Virus record (IMG/VR): IMGVR_UViG_2698536471_000020
Coordinates: 1-9,675 of that record
DNA length: 9,675 nucleotides
Origin: a virus
Lineage: Duplodnaviria; Heunggongvirae; Uroviricota; Caudoviricetes
Reading direction: 5' to 3' (one strand)
Part shown: positions 258-9,675 of the stretch, piece after piece
How positions within the stretch are numbered: the stretch's first letter is position 1
Layout: each line of letters begins with the position of its first letter
Translations under genes and position numbers: made by a program
Notes under the pieces: model-generated
Seen by the model: only the letters and a program-made list of their open reading frames with translations
Databases searched by the model: none
Told to the model about the DNA's origin: nothing

Positions 258-2147
258 TCAGAGTGAATCTGTCCCGCCTGATTTGACCATACCGCGATAA
301 TCCAGAGCTGCCACACCTGCATCAATACGGACTTTCCAGGCCACGCCGTCAACGATAAAACCTTCCTGCTGTTCAAGGTAAGGCTCGTCATTGCCATCAA
401 GATAAGCCACCTCGATTGTGTCCGTTCCCTGTGCGGAAAGCATGTACCATTGTTTTTCGCTGATATCATCAAGGCGGGGATCGACGATGATATCAAGTAG
501 CTTGTGGTACGGGTTAAAGATCCCGCTGTTTTTATCAGCCCCGAAAGGTGCGGTTGAGTTAATCATCTGCAACGCGCGATCTTCCAGTGCTGCCGGAACT
601 AAAAGGAATTTAGGCGCAATATTCAGCACTTCGCCATTTTTGTCCTTCTGTGTGCGCATCAGGTGACGTGCTGCACTAAGTCCCGGTGTTGTCAGTCCTG
701 CTTCAATCAGGTTGCTGTGTTTTTTGTCAAACAGCGTTATTCCGTCAGAAAGTTTTACGTTGCCTGTAAGCACCAGATTAACCAGATTTCCCACCGTTCT
801 TGATGCTGCACGGCCCATAGCCATTGGCACCGTTGATAACTGATCAAGGTCATCATTGATTATCGCCTGGCGGGTAATGCTGAAAATATTCCCGTAAGTA
901 GCCAGCGCGATGGGTTCACCGCGATCGCTGGTGGTGATGTATTTATATTCTGCCCCTTCCGGAACTTTGTTTAACGTTGAGAAGCCATTCATACCAACGC
1001 GGCGGGCTTCCCGGAAGTTTGAAAGGGAACCTTTTTTCGTCCACTGGCGGAATGTTTCGCCGCTGTGCTCCCAGCCTGCAAGCACTGATTTTTCAGCGCC
1101 ACCAGCAAGGATATCGGTAAAATCGCTGCTGCTGTGGGTGAATGCCGCGTTTACTATCTGCGAGCGTGTGCTGTAGCTGCCCGTGCTTATACCACGATGG
1201 GTTAATGATGCCTGTGCCATATCGAAAAGGCTCATCATGGCGTAAGGATTACCGCGTTCGGCCCGTTCGTGACCAAGACGCGCATTAAGCCCCTGACGCA
1301 TGGCATCGCCAGTTATATTGCCGTTATCCGTGTACGCGTAGTAAAGATTTGCGGGGGTGGTTTTGTTTGTTGGCGTTGATTCTTTACCCATAGCGAGTAA
1401 AAGGCGTTCGCGTGCATTCTCAACGCTACATTCTGAATCCGCAAGACAACTTATAGCCAGGTCGTTATATCTTCCGTTGAAGGTGCCAAACAATTCACGG
1501 ATGCCGTTAAGTCGTTCCTGTTCGCCACTGCCAGTTTTCTGGCTGATCATGCTTTTAATTTTTTCCGGCATATTTGAAAAATCTCCGATTCGTTTTGATT
1601 CAATTCGGGCCATTGCTGTAATCGCGGGTATAACCTCATCTGCGAAACCGTTAGCCTTACACTCATTGCCATCCATCCAGGTTTCCGCCTCCATCATGGA
1701 GGTGATTTCCTGTTTGCTCCTGCCCGTTCTTCCGGCATAGGTTTCTGCCATCGTGTCGCCCAGCTTGTCCATCAGATCAGCAAAGCGGCGAACGTCGCCC
1801 GACACTCCGGCAGTAACACCACGGGGGGCATGTATCATCATCATCGCGTTTTCAGGCATAACGATATGATCTCCACACATGGCAATAAACGAGGCCATAG
1901 AAGCCGCCATGCCTTCAATGTGTACGATTTTTTTTGCCGGATGATTTTTCAGAGCGTTATAGATAGCCAGCCCTTCAAAGATGTCGCCACCAGGTGAATG
2001 GATGCGAAGATGGATTTCAGACGCATTACCACACGCGTTGATCTCGTCAGTAAGTGCCGATGCTTTTACACCGTACCCGCCGATCTCGTCATAAATGCGC
2101 ACATAGACAACATCTGCCATAGCCTTAATGGAAAACCATGTTTTCAT
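258..2147 (-). CDS. Prohead protease (ClpP/S14-like) fused to a scaffold-like linker and a major capsid protein domain (HK97-type, inferred)
   Basis: 629-aa ORF. N-terminal ~190 aa carries ClpP-type signatures (GMAASMAS serine motif, MMMIHAPRG histidine motif). The C-terminal ~300 aa reads as a capsid-like domain by composition and position, not by a specific motif. Start overlaps the upstream small ORF stop (ATGA). Confidence 0.75.
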   Translation of the reverse strand: MKTWFSIKAMADVVYVRIYDEIGGYGVKASALTDEINACGNASEIHLRIHSPGGDIFEGLAIYNALKNHPAKKIVHIEGMAASMASFIAMCGDHIVMPENAMMMIHAPRGVTAGVSGDVRRFADLMDKLGDTMAETYAGRTGRSKQEITSMMEAETWMDGNECKANGFADEVIPAITAMARIESKRIGDFSNMPEKIKSMISQKTGSGEQERLNGIRELFGTFNGRYNDLAISCLADSECSVENARERLLLAMGKESTPTNKTTPANLYYAYTDNGNITGDAMRQGLNARLGHERAERGNPYAMMSLFDMAQASLTHRGISTGSYSTRSQIVNAAFTHSSSDFTDILAGGAEKSVLAGWEHSGETFRQWTKKGSLSNFREARRVGMNGFSTLNKVPEGAEYKYITTSDRGEPIALATYGNIFSITRQAIINDDLDQLSTVPMAMGRAASRTVGNLVNLVLTGNVKLSDGITLFDKKHSNLIEAGLTTPGLSAARHLMRTQKDKNGEVLNIAPKFLLVPAALEDRALQMINSTAPFGADKNSGIFNPYHKLLDIIVDPRLDDISEKQWYMLSAQGTDTIEVAYLDGNDEPYLEQQEGFIVDGVAWKVRIDAGVAALDYRGMVKSGGTDSL

Positions 2148-3787: not shown

Positions 3788-5542
3788 TTATAAAAACGCG
3801 TCGCAATCGTCTGTTGTAATTGCGTTGGTCTGCGTTACTCCCTTAACTTTTCGCGTAATATATTCATGCCCGTAAACTTTCGCCGCTGGCTTCATGGCCT
3901 TGCTGAACTCAGCCACGTTTAGCGGTTTGCTCCTGCCTGCGTATGCCATAAACGCCAGATAGACGCGGTAAAGGCTGTTCCTGGTCGTGTACTTCACTGA
4001 ATCACCACCGCCACCCATCATCAGGCCGCGCGCTTCCTCCAGAAAATTCAGGAACTGGCAAAACTCAATAACCGGATCCGTCTGTTGCTTTATTGCCAGT
4101 GCTTCATCACCGTCACGCTGTTCCAGTAGTAAAGCCCTCGCCTTTTCAGGGTCGGTAAAGTTCGCCAGCAAGCGGCGGATAATAACGGGGATTTCAGCCG
4201 CAATTTTTTCCGGTAGTTCCCTGTCTTTTTCGGCCTCACTAACAATATTGTCGAAACGGAAAATCACGCGACGACGTGCCACACCTCCGGCCCGTTCGGT
4301 GAATATCATCGGGTTATTATTGGTCGCCAGCACCACCGCCCTGATTACCGCCGTGAAACGCTTTTCATATTTCGGGTTTATTTCCACGGGGTCGCCGCCC
4401 GTGATTTTCTTGATGCCCGTTCCTTCGCCTGTATATTTCGGCTGGTCTGCTAGGACGATAAGACGACTCCCGACAACCTGCGCACGTCCACCAGCATCAT
4501 CAAGCGATGTCATTTCAGCGCTTACCGTGTTCTGTTTCCCTGCCAGAAGGCTGGCTATGTGTGTGAATGTACTTTTACCGCTCCCGCCGTCTCCGGTGGC
4601 CTCAATAAACATCTGCCAGTCGTACCGGTTCGCCATAATCATGTACAGCGCGGCACATATACGCATCATCTTGCGCGGGTCTTTTCCGGCTGCGTGCTCA
4701 AGCCATTTATGAAAGTTTGGCGCGTTGTCGCGGATATTCTCCCCTGGTGCTGGTGGCGTGTACTCAATGCCGTTGTGCGTGGTGATCCAGTTCTCCGGCG
4801 TGTGCGGGGAAAATTCCCCCGTTTTCAGGTCAAGCGCACCATTGGCGAACGGCAGCAAATCGCCGGACGGCTCGCCCATTGGTTCGGCAATAACTTTTAA
4901 CGCTTCCACGGCGTTATTGATTACGCGCTTGCTGAAAGTGGCCCTGTGCTCTGAATAGATCGCCACCATTTCGCGGCTAAGTTCCATTGTGCTGACCGGA
5001 CACCATACCCCGCCGCGCCATACGTGAACAATTTCACTTTCAGGATGTACGCAAACGCCATCAAAGCGATCGGCAAGCAGCTGCGCGCGCTCACTGTCCG
5101 CCATCTGCGAAAGTTGCGCCTTTTGCTTTACCGGAAGCTCAATGACCAGACCATCAGAAAGATTCTGGCGTTCACGGGCCAGGTATTCGCGCCAGTTCTG
5201 CACCTCCTTGCCGTGCATACCCTCAGGATAAAAATTTGCATCCTGTACACCAGCCGCCGCCAGCTTTTGACCAATCGCCTTTATCATTACTGGTGCAAGA
5301 TATCCGGCCCTGAATATGCGCACGGATTTTCTGCCTTCCGGCACAATTTGCAGCTTATCCAGTTCTGATAACTGCTGCTCCCCAAGCCACACAGGAGGCT
5401 CATTATCTCCGGCCATACGCGCGTCATGTTCCTGCCATTGTTTTGCGTGTGACCAGGCATCACTACCCGCAAAAATAATGACTTCTGTTTCTTTGTGTTT
5501 TATGCCGCGTGACTGCTGTTTTACGTTCGGTGCCAGTTTCAT
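3788..5542 (-). CDS. Replication protein: primase / SF3-type helicase (P4 alpha C-terminal / D5-like family)
   Basis: 584-aa ORF with Walker A P-loop GDGGSGKST and downstream hydrophobic stretch LIVLAD (Walker B-like); size and position (after alpA and small genes, before origin iterons) as for satellite pri/rep genes. ATG overlaps the upstream ORF stop (ATGA at 5539-5542). Confidence 0.8.
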   Translation of the reverse strand: MKLAPNVKQQSRGIKHKETEVIIFAGSDAWSHAKQWQEHDARMAGDNEPPVWLGEQQLSELDKLQIVPEGRKSVRIFRAGYLAPVMIKAIGQKLAAAGVQDANFYPEGMHGKEVQNWREYLARERQNLSDGLVIELPVKQKAQLSQMADSERAQLLADRFDGVCVHPESEIVHVWRGGVWCPVSTMELSREMVAIYSEHRATFSKRVINNAVEALKVIAEPMGEPSGDLLPFANGALDLKTGEFSPHTPENWITTHNGIEYTPPAPGENIRDNAPNFHKWLEHAAGKDPRKMMRICAALYMIMANRYDWQMFIEATGDGGSGKSTFTHIASLLAGKQNTVSAEMTSLDDAGGRAQVVGSRLIVLADQPKYTGEGTGIKKITGGDPVEINPKYEKRFTAVIRAVVLATNNNPMIFTERAGGVARRRVIFRFDNIVSEAEKDRELPEKIAAEIPVIIRRLLANFTDPEKARALLLEQRDGDEALAIKQQTDPVIEFCQFLNFLEEARGLMMGGGGDSVKYTTRNSLYRVYLAFMAYAGRSKPLNVAEFSKAMKPAAKVYGHEYITRKVKGVTQTNAITTDDCDAFL

Positions 5543-5838
5543 TTTTTACCCCTGAATACGTTAAGCATCTTTTTTATTTCCTGAATATTGGCGCGTGCTT
5601 TCTCCCTGCTGGTGGGCTTGCTGCGTTGCGCTGCCTGCACCAGAGAAAAATCACGGTCGAACTGATAAACGGGCATCACGCAATCATATTCGTAACCTTC
5701 ACGGAGGTAAGTTACGCACCGTCCCGCCACGCCCTTAATCATTACCGTGCCGCCGTACTGGTCGCGGTAAATATCACCGCGCGTAAATTTAGGGTGAGTG
5801 TTGCCACTGGCAGTTAAGCCAGAATATTTAAGTTTCAT
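5539..5838 (-). CDS. Hypothetical protein (99 aa), translationally coupled to the primase gene
   Basis: ORF with GGAGA Shine-Dalgarno about 9-10 nt upstream of the ATG; ATGA overlap with primase start. No motif recognised. Confidence 0.55.
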   Translation of the reverse strand: MKLKYSGLTASGNTHPKFTRGDIYRDQYGGTVMIKGVAGRCVTYLREGYEYDCVMPVYQFDRDFSLVQAAQRSKPTSREKARANIQEIKKMLNVFRGKK

Positions 5839-5843
5839 TATTT

Positions 5844-6074
5844 TTATTCTCCGGTGTGGGGCGCGTTATTATTTTCGTGAATTGCCATTGCCTTATCCAG
5901 TTCATCAATAACAGGCGATAGTAATGTCTGAATGGCTGCAAACATTAATACACCTGATTCCTCACCACCTTCCGGCACTTCAATTAATTTAATTAACAAC
6001 GCATTCATTTCGCGTGCTTTAATTAATGCGTTTTCAGAGTGGATTAATACTTCAAAAGGGATTTTATGCATCAC
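5844..6074 (-). CDS. Hypothetical small acidic protein (76 aa), in an AT-rich segment
   Basis: ORF preceded by AAGGGAG; predicted helical, many Glu/Asp. Local sequence is visibly more AT-rich than flanking genes (GC not computed). Confidence 0.45.
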   Translation of the reverse strand: MMHKIPFEVLIHSENALIKAREMNALLIKLIEVPEGGEESGVLMFAAIQTLLSPVIDELDKAMAIHENNNAPHTGE

Positions 6075-6294
6075 AAATTTTCTCCCTTATTCTTTTAATG
6101 TCCTCATTAAGGATGTCTGTAACTTTTATCAGCGAGTTTTTGGCAATTATTTTTATTGTTTTAAGTTTTCTTTTGTCGTGCTCCGACTGTGATTTTCTCT
6201 CCATAATCTCCACCATGTGGGTAACATCAACGAGCGCACGTATCAGTATTTGCATTGCTTCTTCTGCTGCGTCCGGTGTGGTTTTATTGTGCAT
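6064..6294 (-). CDS. Hypothetical small protein (76 aa), in an AT-rich segment; overlaps the downstream ORF by 11 nt
   Basis: ORF preceded by AGGGGA; Lys/Glu-rich helical composition. No motif recognised. Confidence 0.45.
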   Translation of the reverse strand: MHNKTTPDAAEEAMQILIRALVDVTHMVEIMERKSQSEHDKRKLKTIKIIAKNSLIKVTDILNEDIKRIREKICDA

Positions 6295-6496
6295 AAAGCA
6301 TCCCCTGAATATTCGTGTTAATCATTCCGGCACGTTTTGTGATTTCCTGTAATGATTCCCTTGTGGCGACAATTGCTTCATCTGGTAAGTGGTAATTACA
6401 CACCACGCGACCTTTATCCACATTGACCAGTAGCTGCCCTGTGAATTTCTCACGAAACTGAATGCGGTTAAGGTCAGTAAGTGACAGATTAATCAT
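6284..6496 (-). CDS. Hypothetical protein (70 aa from the ATG at 6496), start overlaps the icd-like stop
   Basis: Strong SD AGGAGG 6 nt upstream of the ATG at 6494-6496; ATGATTAA start/stop overlap with the icd-like gene. The track ORF start at 6538 lies inside icd-like and lacks an SD. Confidence 0.5.
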   Translation of the reverse strand: MINLSLTDLNRIQFREKFTGQLLVNVDKGRVVCNYHLPDEAIVATRESLQEITKRAGMINTNIQGMLYAQ

Positions 6497-6677
6497 GGCG
6501 CACCTCCTGACGAATACGGGCGGCAAATACAGCAACACAACCGGACGGGCAACGGTTACGCGCTTCGCGTTCCGTCCAGGCGGTTACGTGGATGATTTGA
6601 TGTTCTGACGCGCCAAAGATGATAAAGCGCCAGAGAAAGGCGGTTTGAGAATGTACAAGGGTAGGGATAGTAGCCAT
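6489..6677 (-). CDS. Icd-like small protein (host cell division inhibitor Icd-like family, 62 aa)
   Basis: It is the C-terminal tail of the 416-codon track ORF, but a strong SD (GAGGAGG) sits 8 nt upstream of the internal ATG at 6675-6677. Sequence MATIPTLVHSQTAFLWRFIIFGASEHQIIHVTAWTEREARNRCPSGCVAVFAARIRQEVRHD fits the remembered Icd-like pattern (F-W-RF ... ERxAR ... FAARxP/Q-E); family assignment is from memory, not a search. Confidence 0.6.
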   Translation of the reverse strand: MATIPTLVHSQTAFLWRFIIFGASEHQIIHVTAWTEREARNRCPSGCVAVFAARIRQEVRHD

Positions 6678-6839
6678 GTTGGCAGCCTCCTCAGTGTGGT
6701 TAAGATAACCGCCACCGGAAACGCCAATTTCGCTGGTGGCGGACTGTACAGGGTTGGCGTAACCGGACACTGAAGAAACCGGCGCGGATTGCTCCGCCCC
6801 CGTACAGCCCACCATTGATAAGGTGTGACTATGCGGCAC

Positions 6840-6861
6840 AAAAAAACACGCGGGGCGCGTG
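6840..6861 (-). terminator. Rho-independent terminator inside the leader upstream of icd-like
   Basis: Minus strand reads CACGCG ccc CGCGTG followed by TTTTTTT (plus-strand A-run 6840-6846, stems 6847-6852 and 6856-6861). Confidence 0.7.
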
Positions 6862-7103
6862 TTATGCGCTTCAGTTTTGCCCAGGACGCCAATCCCGGCA
6901 CCCGTTTTATGAGGTGCGCGGGAATCATAGCCATTTTTGCTGGTGGCGATCAACTGGTTTTTTACACCCGCTTTATTCAGGTTGTGTGAGTCCCGCCCTT
7001 GCGGGTGTGTGGTATGATTTCTCATAGCTACCTCGATACTTTCGCTATCGTTGGTGGTCAGAGGCTGCGAAAGGACGGCAATCCTTTTCAGCCTCGTTTG
7101 CAT

Positions 7104-7207
7104 TGAGTGATAAACACTCAGCTGGATTCCAGTATAATCACTAAGTGGAATCCACTTCAAGCGTTTTGTTTTGGTCTTTTTCGTGTATACTGGATTCCAG
7201 TAATCAC
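7104..7207. promoter_or_regulatory. Divergent promoter/operator region with three TGGAWTCCA palindromes
   Basis: Palindromes CTGGATTCCAG (7122-7132), AAGTGGAATCCACTT (7143-7157), CTGGATTCCAG (7190-7200); extra inverted repeat TGAGTG-ataaa-CACTCA (7104-7120). Minus-strand promoter TTGAAG (7160-7155), 18-nt spacer, TATACT (7136-7131) overlaps the plus-strand TATAAT (7133-7138). Direct repeat CTGGATTCCAGTA(T)AATCAC at 7122-7142 and 7190-7207. Confidence 0.6.
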
Positions 7208-7221
7208 AAAGGGAACCAGAA

Positions 7222-7401
7222 ATGGAAAGAGACCATATCAATAACAAATCACAGAAATTACAGGCTCGCGCCCCGCATGAAGTTGTTGAGGCTATGGAGC
7301 AAGTAAAAGAAACAGGCGAGAGCACTGCGCAATTTATCGTTACAGCCATGCGAGGCGAGATCAAACGCCGCCAGCGCCGTAAGGCCAAAGAATCAGAATA
7401 A
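7222..7401 (+). CDS. Small ribbon-helix-helix-like DNA-binding protein (59 aa; below the ORF-track size cut-off)
   Basis: ATG at 7222 with AGGGA about 8 nt upstream, TAA at 7399-7401. Translation MERDHINNKSQKLQARAPHEVVEAMEQVKETGESTAQFIVTAMRGEIKRRQRRKAKESE has an RHH-like layout (basic strand RAPHEVV, two short helices, basic tail). Sits immediately downstream of the operator palindromes. Confidence 0.45.
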   Translation: MERDHINNKSQKLQARAPHEVVEAMEQVKETGESTAQFIVTAMRGEIKRRQRRKAKESE

Positions 7402-7458
7402 TCACTATCAGCGCCGTGGTGTGAGGTACTACGGCGCATTGCTTTACAGGGCAGTACC

Positions 7459-7686
7459 ATGACTAACAACACACTATCACCAATACAAGACACGCAAACG
7501 CAAGATGATGAAATCATCCGGCAAAGGCAGTCAGAAGCCTGCGCCAGAGTTGAGGAAGAACTAACCAGAACAAAAATACCACCACCAGCGCCGCGCTTAA
7601 TGCCACCAGAAAAATTTGCCCTTGAAGATTTTGTCGAGAAATACCCACGGCGGTTAAAAGCCACTAAAAACCGACCGCCTGGCTGA
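7459..7686 (+). CDS. Hypothetical protein (75 aa), possibly co-transcribed with the RHH-like gene
   Basis: ORF with protein-like charged composition but a weak SD. A hairpin GCGCCGT (7411-7417) / ACGGCGC (7431-7437) lies between it and the RHH gene. Convergent with alpA. Confidence 0.3.
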   Translation: MTNNTLSPIQDTQTQDDEIIRQRQSEACARVEEELTRTKIPPPAPRLMPPEKFALEDFVEKYPRRLKATKNRPPG

Positions 7687-7832
7687 TAGCCTTGTCCACC
7701 AGCTACGGCGGTGCTAAGATTGAAAGCTGCATAAGTCATGAAATAAACTCCTTAGCGGTGCATACGCGCCGCTTCTTTCTTCACGAACAACTACAAACAA
7801 AAACACGGACGGAATTTAAAGAATGAATATTC

Positions 7833-8027
7833 TTAATTGACGCGTTCGCGGTTTTTGACCCACGCCACAACCTCAGACTTAACCCAGCCAACAGAACGAC
7901 CGCCGAGACTGATACGGGAAGGGAAGCGGCCCTGCTTTTCCATCTCGTAACGAGTTGTGCGGCAAACGCCTGTTAGCTCTCTGCATTCTTTTTCGCGGAT
8001 TACACGATCTTCATTTATTTCGCGCAT
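7833..8027 (-). CDS. alpA: AlpA-family transcriptional regulator / excisionase-like protein
   Basis: 64-aa ORF; HTH followed by GGRSVGWVKSEVVAWV matches the AlpA (Phage_AlpA) pattern; located directly downstream of the integrase on the same strand. Confidence 0.8.
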   Translation of the reverse strand: MREINEDRVIREKECRELTGVCRTTRYEMEKQGRFPSRISLGGRSVGWVKSEVVAWVKNRERVN

Positions 8028-8436: not shown

Positions 8437-9675
8437 TCAAGAATTTTGAGAGTAAATTCGCGGGGTCATAACAACGATTTTTTCATCATTGTTCTGGAGA
8501 AGCTCGAGACGCTCAACCCATAGATTAAGAGCGTCACGTTTTGCATCGAGATAACGGGAGTGATTATAGACTCGTTGCACTCCTGGCAACTGGTGCGCGG
8601 TTAGCTGCTCCACTACATGAGGATCCACGCCTAAATCGTTCAGCATCGTTGTAAACGTGTGCCGGATGTCGTGCAACGTCCAGGGGGCTTGATTAATGCG
8701 TCTGTGTGCCGTTCTTCCGTACTCTGATACAGATGATTGCCCTTTCAGTTCTCCGAGCAATAAGCCTGTATGCCTGTTCTGCTCAACCAGCTGCGTGACG
8801 AACGGCAAGATCGCTTCCGGTATAGGCCGGAATATTGCTACCTTCGTTTTGCTGTGCTCCTTCGGAACGGTCCAGAGCATTTCTTTAAAATCCCATTCCT
8901 GGACCTCAGAGCGTCTTAGCTCAGTGGTACGGCATCCGAAGACAATCAGGAGGCGAATCAGGGCGCTGTAGTACGGTGGGTAAATTTTTTCATCCAGGGC
9001 GCGGAGTAATTCCCCAAGCTCCTTGTTTGTTAGTACGCGCTGGCTTATTTCTGCTTTTTTCCCAACATCACCGACAACCATATCATCAAGAACGTTGCTG
9101 ATTGCGTAGCGTCGTTTGCGGCAGTACTTAAGCGCCTGCTTGCATACCTGCAACAAAAAACCTGCTGATACCGGATTACGCTTAGCAAGCTGATCAAAAC
9201 AGGTCAGCCAGTGGCGTAGCTCGCATTTTTCCAGCGGCATAGCACCAATCTGGCTGATTATGTGTGTATTGATCCGGCTCTTCAGAGATTCGTAGTCTGT
9301 GCGCTTTTCCTTCGCGTACGATTCAAGCCAGTAAGTGAGCGCTTCCTTAACCGTAACAGGTGATAACGCTTCCTGTACGGTGTGATTAAGCTCATGGCGT
9401 GGATTTTTCCCCTCAGCAAGCCAGGCGCGACACTGCGCCGCTTTTTCCCTGGCTGCTTTCAGGCTCAAATCAGGATAATTTCCCAGCCTCAGACGTTCAG
9501 GGGATACCTTCCTGCCTGTTCCGGCCCTGTAAGTGAAATACCAGGTTAACAGGCCATTGGTTGAATGCCTTACGCTAAGGTTGCCACCATCATTAAAAAA
9601 GGTGTTTTTTGTGGTTGGTGATCCGCTTAATTTTCGTAAAAGAGTGTCGCTAAGTCTATGAATTGCCCTGCTCAT
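8437..9675 (-). CDS. int: Tyrosine-type site-specific integrase (P4-type, arm-binding N-terminal domain)
   Basis: 412-aa ORF with catalytic-domain signatures in the translation: GCRTTELRRSE (box I Arg), LHDIRHTFTT (H-x-x-R), VYNHSRYLD (catalytic Tyr region). The ATG is the last 3 nt of the window, so the true start and the att site cannot be verified. Confidence 0.85.
   Translation of the reverse strand: MSRAIHRLSDTLLRKLSGSPTTKNTFFNDGGNLSVRHSTNGLLTWYFTYRAGTGRKVSPERLRLGNYPDLSLKAAREKAAQCRAWLAEGKNPRHELNHTVQEALSPVTVKEALTYWLESYAKEKRTDYESLKSRINTHIISQIGAMPLEKCELRHWLTCFDQLAKRNPVSAGFLLQVCKQALKYCRKRRYAISNVLDDMVVGDVGKKAEISQRVLTNKELGELLRALDEKIYPPYYSALIRLLIVFGCRTTELRRSEVQEWDFKEMLWTVPKEHSKTKVAIFRPIPEAILPFVTQLVEQNRHTGLLLGELKGQSSVSEYGRTAHRRINQAPWTLHDIRHTFTTMLNDLGVDPHVVEQLTAHQLPGVQRVYNHSRYLDAKRDALNLWVERLELLQNNDEKIVVMTPRIYSQNS

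What the first reader, a model, noticed from the sequence alone, without database searches (positions are those of the whole stretch)
7104..7207. Three TGGAWTCCA palindromes overlapping face-to-face promoters
Three near-identical palindromes within about 80 bp overlap a minus-strand promoter (TTGAAG, 18-nt spacer, TATACT) directed toward the icd-pri leader and a plus-strand TATAAT (7133-7138) directed toward the RHH-like gene. The 21-bp unit CTGGATTCCAGTA(T)AATCAC is directly repeated. This is a classic operator arrangement for a repressor or activator controlling divergent transcription, and a likely decision point for induction of the island.
Basis: seen in the sequence. Interest (0 to 1): 0.6.

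Follow-up and report, generated by a model that had tools for sequence, protein, structure and literature searches.

The report
Repressor operators at satellite's divergent promoters
The three palindromes are very probably the binding sites of a tiny, uncharacterised Arc/Mnt-like repressor encoded next to them. This suggests that many Gram-negative phage satellites, which were thought to lack a master repressor, carry an exchangeable repressor-operator cassette guarding their replication operon.

Summary
Three exact TGGAWTCCA sites (7123-31, 7146-54, 7191-99) occur where 0.1 is expected by chance.

In 113 related loci from Enterobacterales genomes and IMG/VR, three TG-N5-CA sites sit at nearly fixed positions (about -99 or -111, -76 and -31) upstream of a 59-62 aa YlcI/YnfO-family gene. 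The N5 core is the same within a locus and differs between loci. It co-varies with the protein's N-terminal strand (Mantel r 0.45-0.52, p 2e-4) and not with AlpA (r 0.00).

- Site 2 fills the spacer of a conserved leftward promoter (TTGAAG-18-TATACT, 7160-7131).
- Site 1 abuts that promoter's -10.
- Site 3 abuts a conserved rightward -10 (TATACT, 7186-91), which serves the small gene.

The promoters are back-to-back, not face-to-face.

Best reading: these are operators of a ribbon-helix-helix repressor that shuts the icd-primase operon and autoregulates. Binding itself is untested.

Unexpectedly, one minus-strand frame stays free of stop codons across the operators and antisense to the repressor gene in about 90% of loci. 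This resembles the phage P4 vis-eta-kil "translate-through" design.

I found no published work on this protein family. I rate it a new variant of a known kind.

The parts
7123..7131 (.). Operator site 1 (TGGATTCCA; extended palindrome CTGGATTCCAG, 7122-7132). It overlaps the last base of the leftward -10 and covers the predicted leftward start region.
   Evidence: A homologous TG-N5-CA site lies at about -99 (type A) or about -111 (type B) from the ylcI-like ATG in 107 of 113 loci.
7146..7154 (.). Operator site 2 (TGGAATCCA; extended GTGGAATCCAC, 7145-7155). It lies inside the 18-nt spacer of the leftward promoter and abuts its -35.
   Evidence: The site is at -76 in 101 of 113 loci and is always directly followed by the reverse complement of TTGA(A/C)N.
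7191..7199 (.). Operator site 3 (TGGATTCCA; extended CTGGATTCCAG, 7190-7200). Its first T is the last T of the rightward -10, and it covers the predicted ylcI-like start region.
   Evidence: The site is at -31 in 107 of 113 loci and is always fused to GTATACT.
7131..7160 (-). Operator-controlled leftward promoter (called P_L1 here): -35 TTGAAG at 7160-7155, 18-nt spacer, -10 TATACT at 7136-7131. The predicted start is about 7124.
   Evidence: Consensus scan. Both hexamers are conserved in register in 44 register-matched loci.
7186..7191 (+). Conserved -10 (TATACT) of the rightward promoter for the ylcI-like gene (called P_R here). There is no good -35, only a conserved TTT about 17 nt upstream. 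The predicted start is about 7198.
   Evidence: GTATACTG is almost invariant in the family profile. The consensus scan does not report it because the -35 is poor.
7111..7138 (+). It is present in the window, but its -35 is not conserved in relatives. The TATAAT is the mirror image of the leftward -10.
7222..7401 (+). Gene for a 59-aa YlcI/YnfO-family protein, the predicted Arc/Mnt-like ribbon-helix-helix repressor. A Shine-Dalgarno-like AAGGGA lies at 7209-7214.
6489..7739 (-). Long minus-strand 'through' ORF: 416 aa from its first ATG, and open from 7752. It runs antisense to orf75 and the ylcI-like gene, crosses all three operators and both promoters, and ends in an Icd/Kil-like domain. It is the counterpart of P4 eta.
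6489..7025 (-). Nested ORF (178 aa, same frame as the through ORF). It is the first translated gene on the P_L1 transcript, with SD GAGG (plus-strand CCTC at 7031-7034). Its C-terminus is Icd-like. It is the counterpart of P4 kil.
   Evidence: NF033153 scores 54.5 bits at residues 130-173. Sequence.
7061..7095 (-). Stable hairpin in the 5' leader of the P_L1 transcript. It carries a 13-nt repeat of a motif found inside the isrK-like RNA.
   Evidence: Fold of 7124->7020: -33.6 kcal/mol, z = -2.75. Repeat family D7.
6924..6953 (-). Second leftward promoter, homologous in position to P4 PLE: TTGATC-18-TATGAT. It ends 7 nt before the start of the isrK-like RNA.
   Evidence: Scan. It aligns column for column with P4 TTGCCT-18-TATAGT.
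6841..6917 (-). isrK-family RNA (P4 seqA-type element) with its own terminator.
   Evidence: Rfam RF01394, 66 bits against a gathering score of 50.
6732..6819 (-). C4-family antisense RNA (P4 CI / P1 C4 type immunity RNA).
   Evidence: Rfam RF01695, 77.6 bits against a gathering score of 45.
7833..8027 (-). alpA (P4 vis-like regulator/excisionase). It is co-oriented with the through ORF, and its stop codon lies 94 nt upstream of the through ORF's first ATG.
   Evidence: Pfam PF05930, 58.9 bits. Geometry.

Best explanation
The three TGGAWTCCA palindromes are operators for the 59-aa YlcI/YnfO-family protein encoded immediately to their right (7222-7401). I predict this protein is an Arc/Mnt-like ribbon-helix-helix (RHH) dimer.

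Each 9-11 bp site has the form TG-N5-CA and would take one dimer. The variable N5 core would be read by the variable N-terminal strand (residues 11-17, QKLQARA here). The invariant TG/CA arms would be read by invariant residues.

The sites sit on two back-to-back promoters:
- Site 2 fills the spacer of the leftward promoter P_L1 (7160-7131), and site 1 abuts its -10. P_L1 drives the leader, the icd-like gene and the DUF4222-primase-SSB-capsid operon. Bound protein should therefore occlude RNA polymerase and keep the island's replication operon off.
- Site 3 starts at the last base of the -10 of the protein's own promoter, so the protein should autoregulate negatively.

In this window P_L1 lies upstream of a P4 PLE-like promoter and the isrK/C4 immunity RNAs, and its transcript has a ribosome start (ATG 7025) ahead of them. 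By analogy with P4, P_L1 is in the position of the immunity-insensitive promoter, which would make the RHH/operator unit the gate for induction.

What is shown: the existence of the sites, their non-randomness, the conserved architecture, the co-variation with the protein, and the lack of co-variation with AlpA.

What is inferred: binding, repression rather than activation, start sites, dimer stoichiometry, and how repression is lifted. Repression might be lifted by a helper-phage antirepressor, or by AlpA-driven read-through transcription and translation of the antisense open frame that collides with and silences the repressor gene.
For: 1) Non-random: 3 exact sites against 0.10 expected, and 0 of 200 shuffles reach 3.

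2) Conserved architecture: in 51 genome loci from at least 20 genera and 62 IMG/VR loci, three TG-N5-CA sites lie at -31 (107/113), -76 (101/113) and about -99 or about -111 from the ATG. The leftward -35/-10, the rightward GTATACT and the Shine-Dalgarno sequence are conserved around them. The spacers and the N5 cores are not conserved between loci.

3) Concerted change: the mean 9-mer distance between sites of one locus is 0.80. Between loci whose proteins differ in the strand it is 3.37.

4) Co-variation with the protein strand: 22 strand motifs map onto 21 N5 cores (for example QKLQAR-GAWTC, QKMSAR-GCACC, QMTTVR-AAATA, QQLNAR-AATCG, KKLEAR-TCAGC, QALKAR-TGGCC). Mantel r is 0.45-0.52 with p = 2e-4. 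The correlation is unchanged after controlling for divergence of the spacer DNA (partial r = 0.45).

5) AlpA is excluded as the specificity partner: r = -0.002, p = 0.49. Eleven locus pairs have less than 15% AlpA divergence but different operators and strands. Nine pairs have the same operator and strand but more than 70% AlpA divergence. orf75 is absent from all other genera.

7) The gene is real: substitutions in its frame are conservative (mean BLOSUM62 +0.17, against -0.99 in the antisense frame).
Against: - There is no experimental binding, footprint or transcription start data.
- The operator and the gene are physically adjacent, so some co-variation could come from linkage. The concerted three-site identity, the partial Mantel test and the recurrence of the same pairings in different genera and AlpA backgrounds argue against this, but they do not abolish the concern.
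- RHH membership rests on weak sequence signals and on a monomer model whose N-terminal segment is drawn as a low-confidence helix rather than a strand. Foldseek found no PDB match.
- P_R has no recognisable -35 and was not called by the promoter scan.
- The sign of regulation is inferred only from the positions of the sites.
Confidence: 0.75

Rival explanations
1. The YlcI/YnfO-like protein binds the sites, but the unit is a switch rather than a plain repressor. As with P22 Mnt at Pant/Pmnt, occupying sites 1 and 2 would shut the leftward promoter and thereby stimulate the adjacent, weak rightward promoter. The main output would be positive autoregulation and bistability. Alternatively, occupancy at site 2, next to the -35, might activate.
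For: The two -35 regions are adjacent and back-to-back (7155-7160 and about 7163-7168), so RNA polymerases may compete. P_R lacks a good -35, as promoters that need help often do. Site 2 to site 3 spacing is invariant at 45 bp.
Against: Site 3 starts at the last base of the P_R -10 and covers the predicted start region in 107 of 113 loci. That is a repressing position. Site 2 lies inside the spacer, not upstream of the -35, which is not an activating geometry.
Confidence: 0.12
2. The sites are bound by a different factor: AlpA, a helper-phage protein or a host protein. The small ORF would be a bystander.
For: AlpA is the only experimentally established regulator of Gram-negative PICIs (PMC6092414). 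It is encoded about 630 bp away on the strand of the controlled operon.
Against: The operator core does not co-vary with AlpA (r = -0.002). Many loci have no alpA within 3 kb. A host or helper factor could not explain more than 20 locus-specific cores that track the neighbouring protein's strand across genera.
Confidence: 0.06
3. The repeats are not protein operators. They would act as nucleic-acid structure or as another kind of cis element: hairpins in the read-through or leader RNA, replication iterons, or recombination sites.
For: The 15-nt inverted repeat 7122-7136 / 7186-7200 could pair in a transcript that spans both arms (I3). PICI origins do use iterons.
Against: In most specificity classes the sites are direct, non-palindromic repeats (for example TGAATCGCA three times in the same orientation), so they cannot form hairpins. 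Their positions are locked to the -35 and -10 hexamers, not to each other's complement. PICI origins lie downstream of pri (PMC10111431).
Confidence: 0.04

Closest known systems
Phage P22 immI region: Mnt and Arc ribbon-helix-helix repressors at the overlapping divergent promoters Pant/Pmnt (my own knowledge of the classical literature; Arc sequence compared)
   Same: A very small RHH repressor is encoded beside, and transcribed away from, the promoter it controls. The operators lie within the spacer and start region of that promoter, and the repressor autoregulates. The N-terminal motif ARAPHEV aligns with Arc LRWPREV. The system forms a secondary 'immunity' layer of a mobile element.
   Different: - Sequence similarity to Arc is not significant (hhalign probability 16%).
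- There are three dispersed single sites of the form TG-N5-CA, rather than one 21-bp Arc operator or one 17-bp Mnt operator.
- The controlled operon encodes icd-like and primase/replication genes, not an antirepressor.
- One regulator is present instead of two.
- The gene is embedded antisense in a long open frame.
Satellite phage P4 left operon: vis (alpA homologue) - eta/kil nested ORFs - PLE/PLL promoters - CI RNA immunity
   Same: The window contains the same parts in the same order: isrK/seqA-type RNA, C4/CI-type RNA, a PLE-like promoter aligned to P4 PLE, a long ORF that begins upstream of the promoter next to alpA/vis and ends in an Icd/Kil-like domain, and then primase. The eta/kil logic is described in PMC10111431.
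   Different: - P4 has no protein repressor and no gene antisense to eta.
- About 840 nt are intercalated here between alpA and the PLE-like promoter. They carry orf75, the RHH gene, three operators and an extra promoter.
- None of the 60 other genome loci carrying the cassette has the C4/isrK RNAs.
Stl/Rpr master repressors of SaPIs and other Gram-positive PICIs
   Same: The functional layout is the same: a repressor gene transcribed divergently from the excision/replication operon, with its operators in the intergenic region, keeps the island quiescent (PMC6092414).
   Different: - The proteins are unrelated (large HTH proteins against a 59-aa RHH-like protein).
- In SaPIs the repressor lies between int and the replication genes with int on its own side. 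Here int and alpA are co-oriented with the replication operon.
- No helper-phage antirepressor is known for the protein described here.
Phage P1/P7 immI: operator Op51 (C1 repressor) - c4 RNA - icd - ant
   Same: A protein-repressor operator sits at the promoter of an operon whose leader encodes a C4 antisense RNA followed by an icd gene (Rfam C4 and NCBIfam Icd-like hits).
   Different: - P1 C1 is a large, unrelated repressor encoded elsewhere in the genome and binds asymmetric 17-bp sites.
- No ant gene follows icd here.
Plasmid RHH repressors such as CopG of pMV158 and the ParB of pCXC100 (PDB 3no7)
   Different: The biological context differs (plasmid copy number and partition). The sequence relationship is below significance.

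Membership tests
NCBIfam NF041551, YlcI/YnfO family (N-terminal domain) | Profile score above the curated cutoff | tested here: met
   72.3 bits against a cutoff of 30, E = 2.4e-20, residues 9-50. RefSeq annotates the identical protein WP_000439004.1 as 'YlcI/YnfO family protein'.
Ribbon-helix-helix (Arc/MetJ/CopG) superfamily | Sequence-profile membership in an RHH family | tested here: inconclusive
   Only sub-threshold hits were found, mostly to RHH families. PSK_trans_fac gives E = 0.024 for the window protein and 2.9e-4 for a relative. RHH_1 gives 4.5e-4. TacA1, HicB-like and CB_ParB_C also appear. PDB 3no7 gives E = 0.015. hhalign against Arc gives probability 16%.
Ribbon-helix-helix (Arc/MetJ/CopG) superfamily | Strand-helix-helix fold with the N-terminal strand pairing in a dimer | tested here: inconclusive
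Ribbon-helix-helix (Arc/MetJ/CopG) superfamily | Binds repeated or (pseudo)palindromic sites overlapping its target promoter | not testable with these tools
   Candidate sites, and their co-variation with the predicted strand, were found. Binding needs EMSA or footprinting.
P22 immI-type module (Mnt/Arc - Pant) | The controlled operon encodes an antirepressor | tested here: not met
   The operon encodes Icd-like, DUF4222, D5-type primase, SSB and a protease/capsid fusion, with no Ant/KilA-N/Bro domain in the window. I therefore treat it as working like immI but not as a member.
P4-type immunity region | CI/C4-family RNA and seqA/isrK-type element in the leader of the primase operon | tested here: met
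   C4 scores 77.6 bits and isrK 66 bits, both above gathering score. They are in the same order and strand as in P4 (74.9 and 60.8 bits).
P4-type immunity region | Long ORF starting upstream of the early promoter near vis/alpA and ending in a Kil/Icd-like domain (eta/kil nesting) | tested here: met
   The window ORF 7739->6489 ends in NF033153 (52.9 bits). The P4 ORF 8812->8168 ends in NF033153 (73.1 bits). The frame is open across the promoter in 42/51 and 58/62 related loci.
P4-type immunity region | Immunity exerted by RNA only, with no protein repressor at the early promoter | tested here: not met
   The window has an extra operator-covered promoter and an RHH-like gene. P4 has neither.
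Gram-negative PICI (Fillol-Salom 2018 definition) | int, alpA and pri present and co-oriented, with a capsid-related late gene | tested here: met
   int 8437-9675(-), alpA 7833-8027(-), D5-type primase 3788-5542(-) and ClpP-protease/major-capsid fusion 258-2147(-).
Gram-negative PICI (Fillol-Salom 2018 definition) | No divergent repressor gene; regulation by the activator AlpA alone | tested here: not met
   A divergently transcribed regulator gene with operators lies between alpA and the replication operon. [quoted passage not shown]

The most novel reading that the evidence does not exclude
YlcI/YnfO-like RHH proteins would be the missing master repressors of a large group of Gram-negative PICI/P4-like satellites. 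They would come as exchangeable repressor-operator cassettes with more than 20 specificity ('immunity') types.

The repressor gene is written antisense, wobble-in-register, inside a P4 eta-like ORF. That ORF is kept free of stop codons only so that ribosomes can follow RNA polymerase coming from alpA. Helper-induced, AlpA-driven read-through would then do three things at once: escape Rho and RNA immunity, sweep the repressor off its operators, and silence its gene by convergent transcription. The result would be a protein-plus-antisense bistable switch for satellite induction.
Probability: 0.35. Interest if true: 0.85.

Novelty: new variant of a known kind. Interest (0 to 1): 0.7.

Why it matters
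Work on Gram-negative PICIs has left open whether these satellites have a repressor at all. [quoted passage not shown]

A conserved repressor-operator cassette at the head of the replication operon gives that question a concrete, cheap experimental handle. The cassette is present in about 9% of complete E. coli genomes and across Enterobacterales.

- The natural series of more than 20 matched strand/operator pairs is a ready-made specificity code for a minimal DNA-binding protein. It is also a source of orthogonal small repressors for engineering.
- The stop-free antisense frame over a real gene is a clean, statistically strong case of selection on synonymous sites for translation of the opposite strand. 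It extends the P4 eta mechanism to many satellites.

Tried and rejected
- Foldseek of the AF2 model against the PDB gave no match.
- A profile of the close family against PDB sequences gave no RHH hit, only chance-level hits.
- tblastn of the protein against 50,697 phage genomes gave no match at E <= 1e-3. I therefore found no evidence that helper phages carry the regulator.
- Pfam DUF3950, the K-12 YlcI domain, does not hit the window protein.
- K-12 ylcI lies beside nohD/cos without the three-site layout, so it gives no functional lead.
- I searched the literature for YlcI/YnfO/DUF3950, for PICI plus RHH/operator, and for P4 eta/kil. Nothing on this family was found. One hit on a PICI 'repressor' (EcCIMP1_025) concerns an unrelated PerC/ANR-like protein.
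- I tested whether the cassette always travels with C4/isrK RNAs. It does not: 0 of the 60 other genome loci have them at gathering score.
- I tested AlpA as the partner and rejected it.
- I tested orf75 as the partner and rejected it, because it occurs only in near-identical E. coli islands.
- I tested whether the plus-strand TATAAT promoter is conserved. It is not.
- I considered that the minus-strand ORF is the real gene and the small ORF an artefact. I rejected this because substitutions are conservative in the small ORF's frame and radical in the antisense frame, whose product is Ser/Cys/Leu-rich.

Full report
**The observation.** The window region 7100-7221 contains exactly three matches to TGGAWTCCA, at 7123-7131, 7146-7154 and 7191-7199, and the window has no others. 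Dinucleotide-preserving shuffles give 0.10 matches on average, and none of 200 shuffles reaches three. The direct repeat is real but slightly misdescribed. An exact 13-mer, CTGGATTCCAGTA, occurs twice and is followed by TAATCAC at a 2-nt offset (D6 and D12). The more informative symmetry is a 15-nt inverted repeat, CTGGATTCCAGTATA / TATACTGGATTCCAG (I3).

**Context.** The window is a Gram-negative PICI/P4-like satellite. Its genes are:
- int 8437-9675(-)
- alpA 7833-8027(-)
- two small plus-strand ORFs: orf75 at 7459-7686 and a 59-aa ORF at 7222-7401
- on the minus strand, an Icd-like ORF, small ORFs, DUF4222, a D5-type primase, SSB and a ClpP-protease/capsid fusion

The 59-aa protein is a YlcI/YnfO-family protein (NF041551, 72 bits). 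The leftward leader carries an isrK-family RNA (6917-6841, 66 bits) and a C4-family antisense RNA (6819-6732, 77.6 bits). Phage P4 has the same two RNAs in the same order, where they correspond to seqA and the CI immunity RNA. A second leftward promoter, TTGATC-18-TATGAT (6953-6924), aligns column for column with P4 PLE.

**Comparative test.** I collected 60 loci encoding relatives of the 59-aa protein from one-genome-per-species bacterial genomes. I later collected 80 more from IMG/VR as a replication set. The genome loci come from Serratia, Xenorhabdus, Pectobacterium, Yersinia, Proteus, Morganella and other Enterobacterales. When anchored on the start codon, the upstream 125 nt show one architecture throughout:
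- A TG-N5-CA site at -31 (107 of 113 loci), whose first T is the last T of an almost invariant GTATACT.
- A TG-N5-CA site at -76 (101 of 113), directly followed by the reverse complement of TTGA(A/C)N.
- A third site at about -99 (type A, as in the window) or about -111 (type B).
- A TAnnnT hexamer on the minus strand 17-18 nt from that -35.

There are therefore two back-to-back promoters. The leftward one (P_L1) has site 2 in its spacer and site 1 at, or just downstream of, its start. The rightward one (P_R) has site 3 at its start. In type B loci the -10 stays in place while site 1 moves 12 bp. This shows that the -10 and the operator are separate elements.

**Who binds.** The N5 cores are nearly identical among the three sites of a locus (mean 9-mer distance 0.80). 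They differ between loci whose proteins differ in the N-terminal segment (3.37). Across 113 loci, 22 strand motifs map onto 21 cores. Examples are QKLQAR-GAWTC (the window), QKMSAR-GCACC, QMTTVR-AAATA, QQLNAR-AATCG, KKLEAR-TCAGC, QALKAR-TGGCC and LQ(V/L)SVR-AACAC. The same pairings recur in the independent IMG/VR set.

Mantel correlation between operator distance and strand distance is 0.45-0.52 (p = 2e-4). It is unchanged after controlling for divergence of the 36-nt spacer.

AlpA shows no correlation (r = -0.002, p = 0.49). Eleven locus pairs have near-identical AlpA but different operators and strands. Nine pairs have the same operator and strand but AlpA more than 70% different. orf75 is confined to near-identical E. 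coli islands. The gene and its operators therefore behave as one exchangeable cassette, with the small protein as the specificity partner.

**Mechanism proposed.** One dimer would bind per TG-N5-CA site. The variable strand would read the core, and invariant residues would read the TG/CA arms. Occupied sites 1 and 2 sit 23 bp apart, centre to centre, about two helical turns. They would occlude P_L1 and keep the icd-primase-capsid operon silent. Site 3 would give negative autoregulation.

In this window P_L1 lies 207 nt upstream of the PLE-like promoter and the immunity RNAs. Its transcript carries SD GAGG and ATG 7025, which open a 178-codon ORF. That ORF runs through the isrK and C4 sequences and ends in the Icd-like domain. 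In P4, transcripts that are translated across this region escape CI-dependent termination (PMC10111431; the details are from my own knowledge of Forti et al. 1999). P_L1 is thus in the position of the immunity-insensitive promoter, and its repressor would be the gate for induction. Binding, the sign of regulation and the start sites are all inferred.

**An unexpected layer.** One specific minus-strand frame has no stop codon across both the 130-nt intergenic region and the whole repressor gene. This holds in 42 of 51 genome loci and 58 of 62 IMG/VR loci. The other two frames average about 4 plus 2-4 stops, and neither is ever open across both regions.
- The open stretch is 99-568 codons long (420 in the window, 7752->6489) and continues into the first gene of the leftward operon.
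- Its wobble positions coincide with those of the repressor gene.
- Substitutions are conservative in the repressor frame (+0.17) and radical in the antisense frame (-0.99).
- The codon preceding each Gln/His codon never ends in T (0 of 216, against 23% T at third positions overall). This is exactly what avoiding an antisense TGA requires.
- Synonymous resampling gives a 40% chance per locus of an open frame, yet 49 of 49 distinct genes have one.
- In about ten loci the frame's first start codon overlaps or abuts the alpA stop.

This is the P4 vis-eta-kil design. The P4 ORF 8812->8168 overlaps vis, contains both RNAs and ends in an Icd-like domain. The difference is that here a repressor gene and its operators are written into the opposite strand. 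It suggests that AlpA-driven read-through, translated in this frame, bypasses and perhaps silences the repressor. I could not test that.

**Comparison and novelty.** The unit works like P22 immI (Mnt/Arc at Pant/Pmnt) and like the Stl-str region of SaPIs. It sits in a P4-type left operon. It is not a member of the first, because no antirepressor is controlled and the sequence link is insignificant. It is not a member of the second, because the protein is unrelated. It departs from P4, which has no protein repressor. Published descriptions of Gram-negative PICIs report unidirectional genes, activation by AlpA and no identified repressor.

The cassette is detectable in 485 of 5,426 complete E. 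coli genomes. One of these (L064) is an island inserted in a prophage terminase gene. I rate the finding as a new variant of a known kind. Its interest is well above average because it offers a concrete candidate for the 'missing' repressor and a natural table of protein-operator specificities.

**Limits.** All the evidence is comparative. Adjacency of the gene and its sites means that linkage contributes to the co-variation. Loci were retrieved by protein similarity. The site-calling script used promoter landmarks, and 11 of 113 loci deviate from TG-N5-CA at site 2 or site 3. No dimer or DNA-complex model could be built.

Noticed in passing
window 6489-7752 (-); also L002-L061 and L065-L144: A minus-strand frame is kept free of stop codons across the operators and antisense to the whole repressor gene. 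It is open in 42/51 and 58/62 loci, while the other two frames are never open. The frame is conserved as an open frame, not as a protein. The codon before each CAN codon never ends in T (0 of 216). This resembles P4 eta.
   Followed up: yes
window 6924-6953 (-), 6841-6917 (-), 6732-6819 (-): A P4 PLE-like promoter is followed by an isrK-family RNA and a C4-family RNA, all lying inside the nested 178-codon ORF. None of the 60 other genome loci with the cassette has these RNAs, so the window is a mosaic of two regulatory layers.
   Followed up: partly
window 7061-7095 (-) and 6883-6895: A stable hairpin in the P_L1 leader (z = -2.75) carries AGGACGGCAATCC, a 12/13 copy of AGGACGCCAATCC found inside the isrK-like RNA. 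It may be a second target for the C4-like RNA, like the a1b1/a2b2 or seqA/seqC pairs.
   Followed up: no
window 7130-7143 and 7394-7407: CAGTATAATCACTA (the flank of site 1 and the leftward -10) recurs as CAGAATAATCACTA (13/14) at the stop codon of the repressor gene. I have no explanation for this.
   Followed up: no
window 7459-7686 (+): orf75 has no family hit and occurs only in near-identical E. coli islands. It lies antisense to the open through-frame, so it may not be a real gene.
   Followed up: partly
L001 (NZ_CP027368) 8854-10129; junction at about window 6972: The same cassette, alpA and int (99.7% identity) are joined at about 6972 to a different left arm. That arm has a short Icd-like gene and no immunity RNAs. 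The reading frame is preserved across the junction.
   Followed up: partly
L064 (NZ_CP027766) 4777-17246: An island with an identical cassette is inserted in the large-terminase gene of a lambdoid prophage (a helper-embedded PICI). It carries a BRO-N gene between alpA and the cassette.
   Followed up: no
L132 3086-3937 (-): In a 62-kb IMG/VR contig, an AntA/AntB antirepressor gene overlaps the start of the through ORF that runs over the cassette. This suggests the cassette also occurs in phage-sized elements.
   Followed up: no
L002, L006, L007, L011, L019, L023, L029, L034, L053 (about 5400-6100): The int-alpA RNA motif (RF02996) is present near the integrase end of many related loci. It was not detected in the window even at E <= 1.
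   Followed up: no
L062 (E. coli K-12) 5252-5446 (-): The name-giving YlcI of prophage DLP12 lies next to nohD/cos. It has a typical RHH-like sequence but no three-site TG-N5-CA layout upstream.
   Followed up: partly
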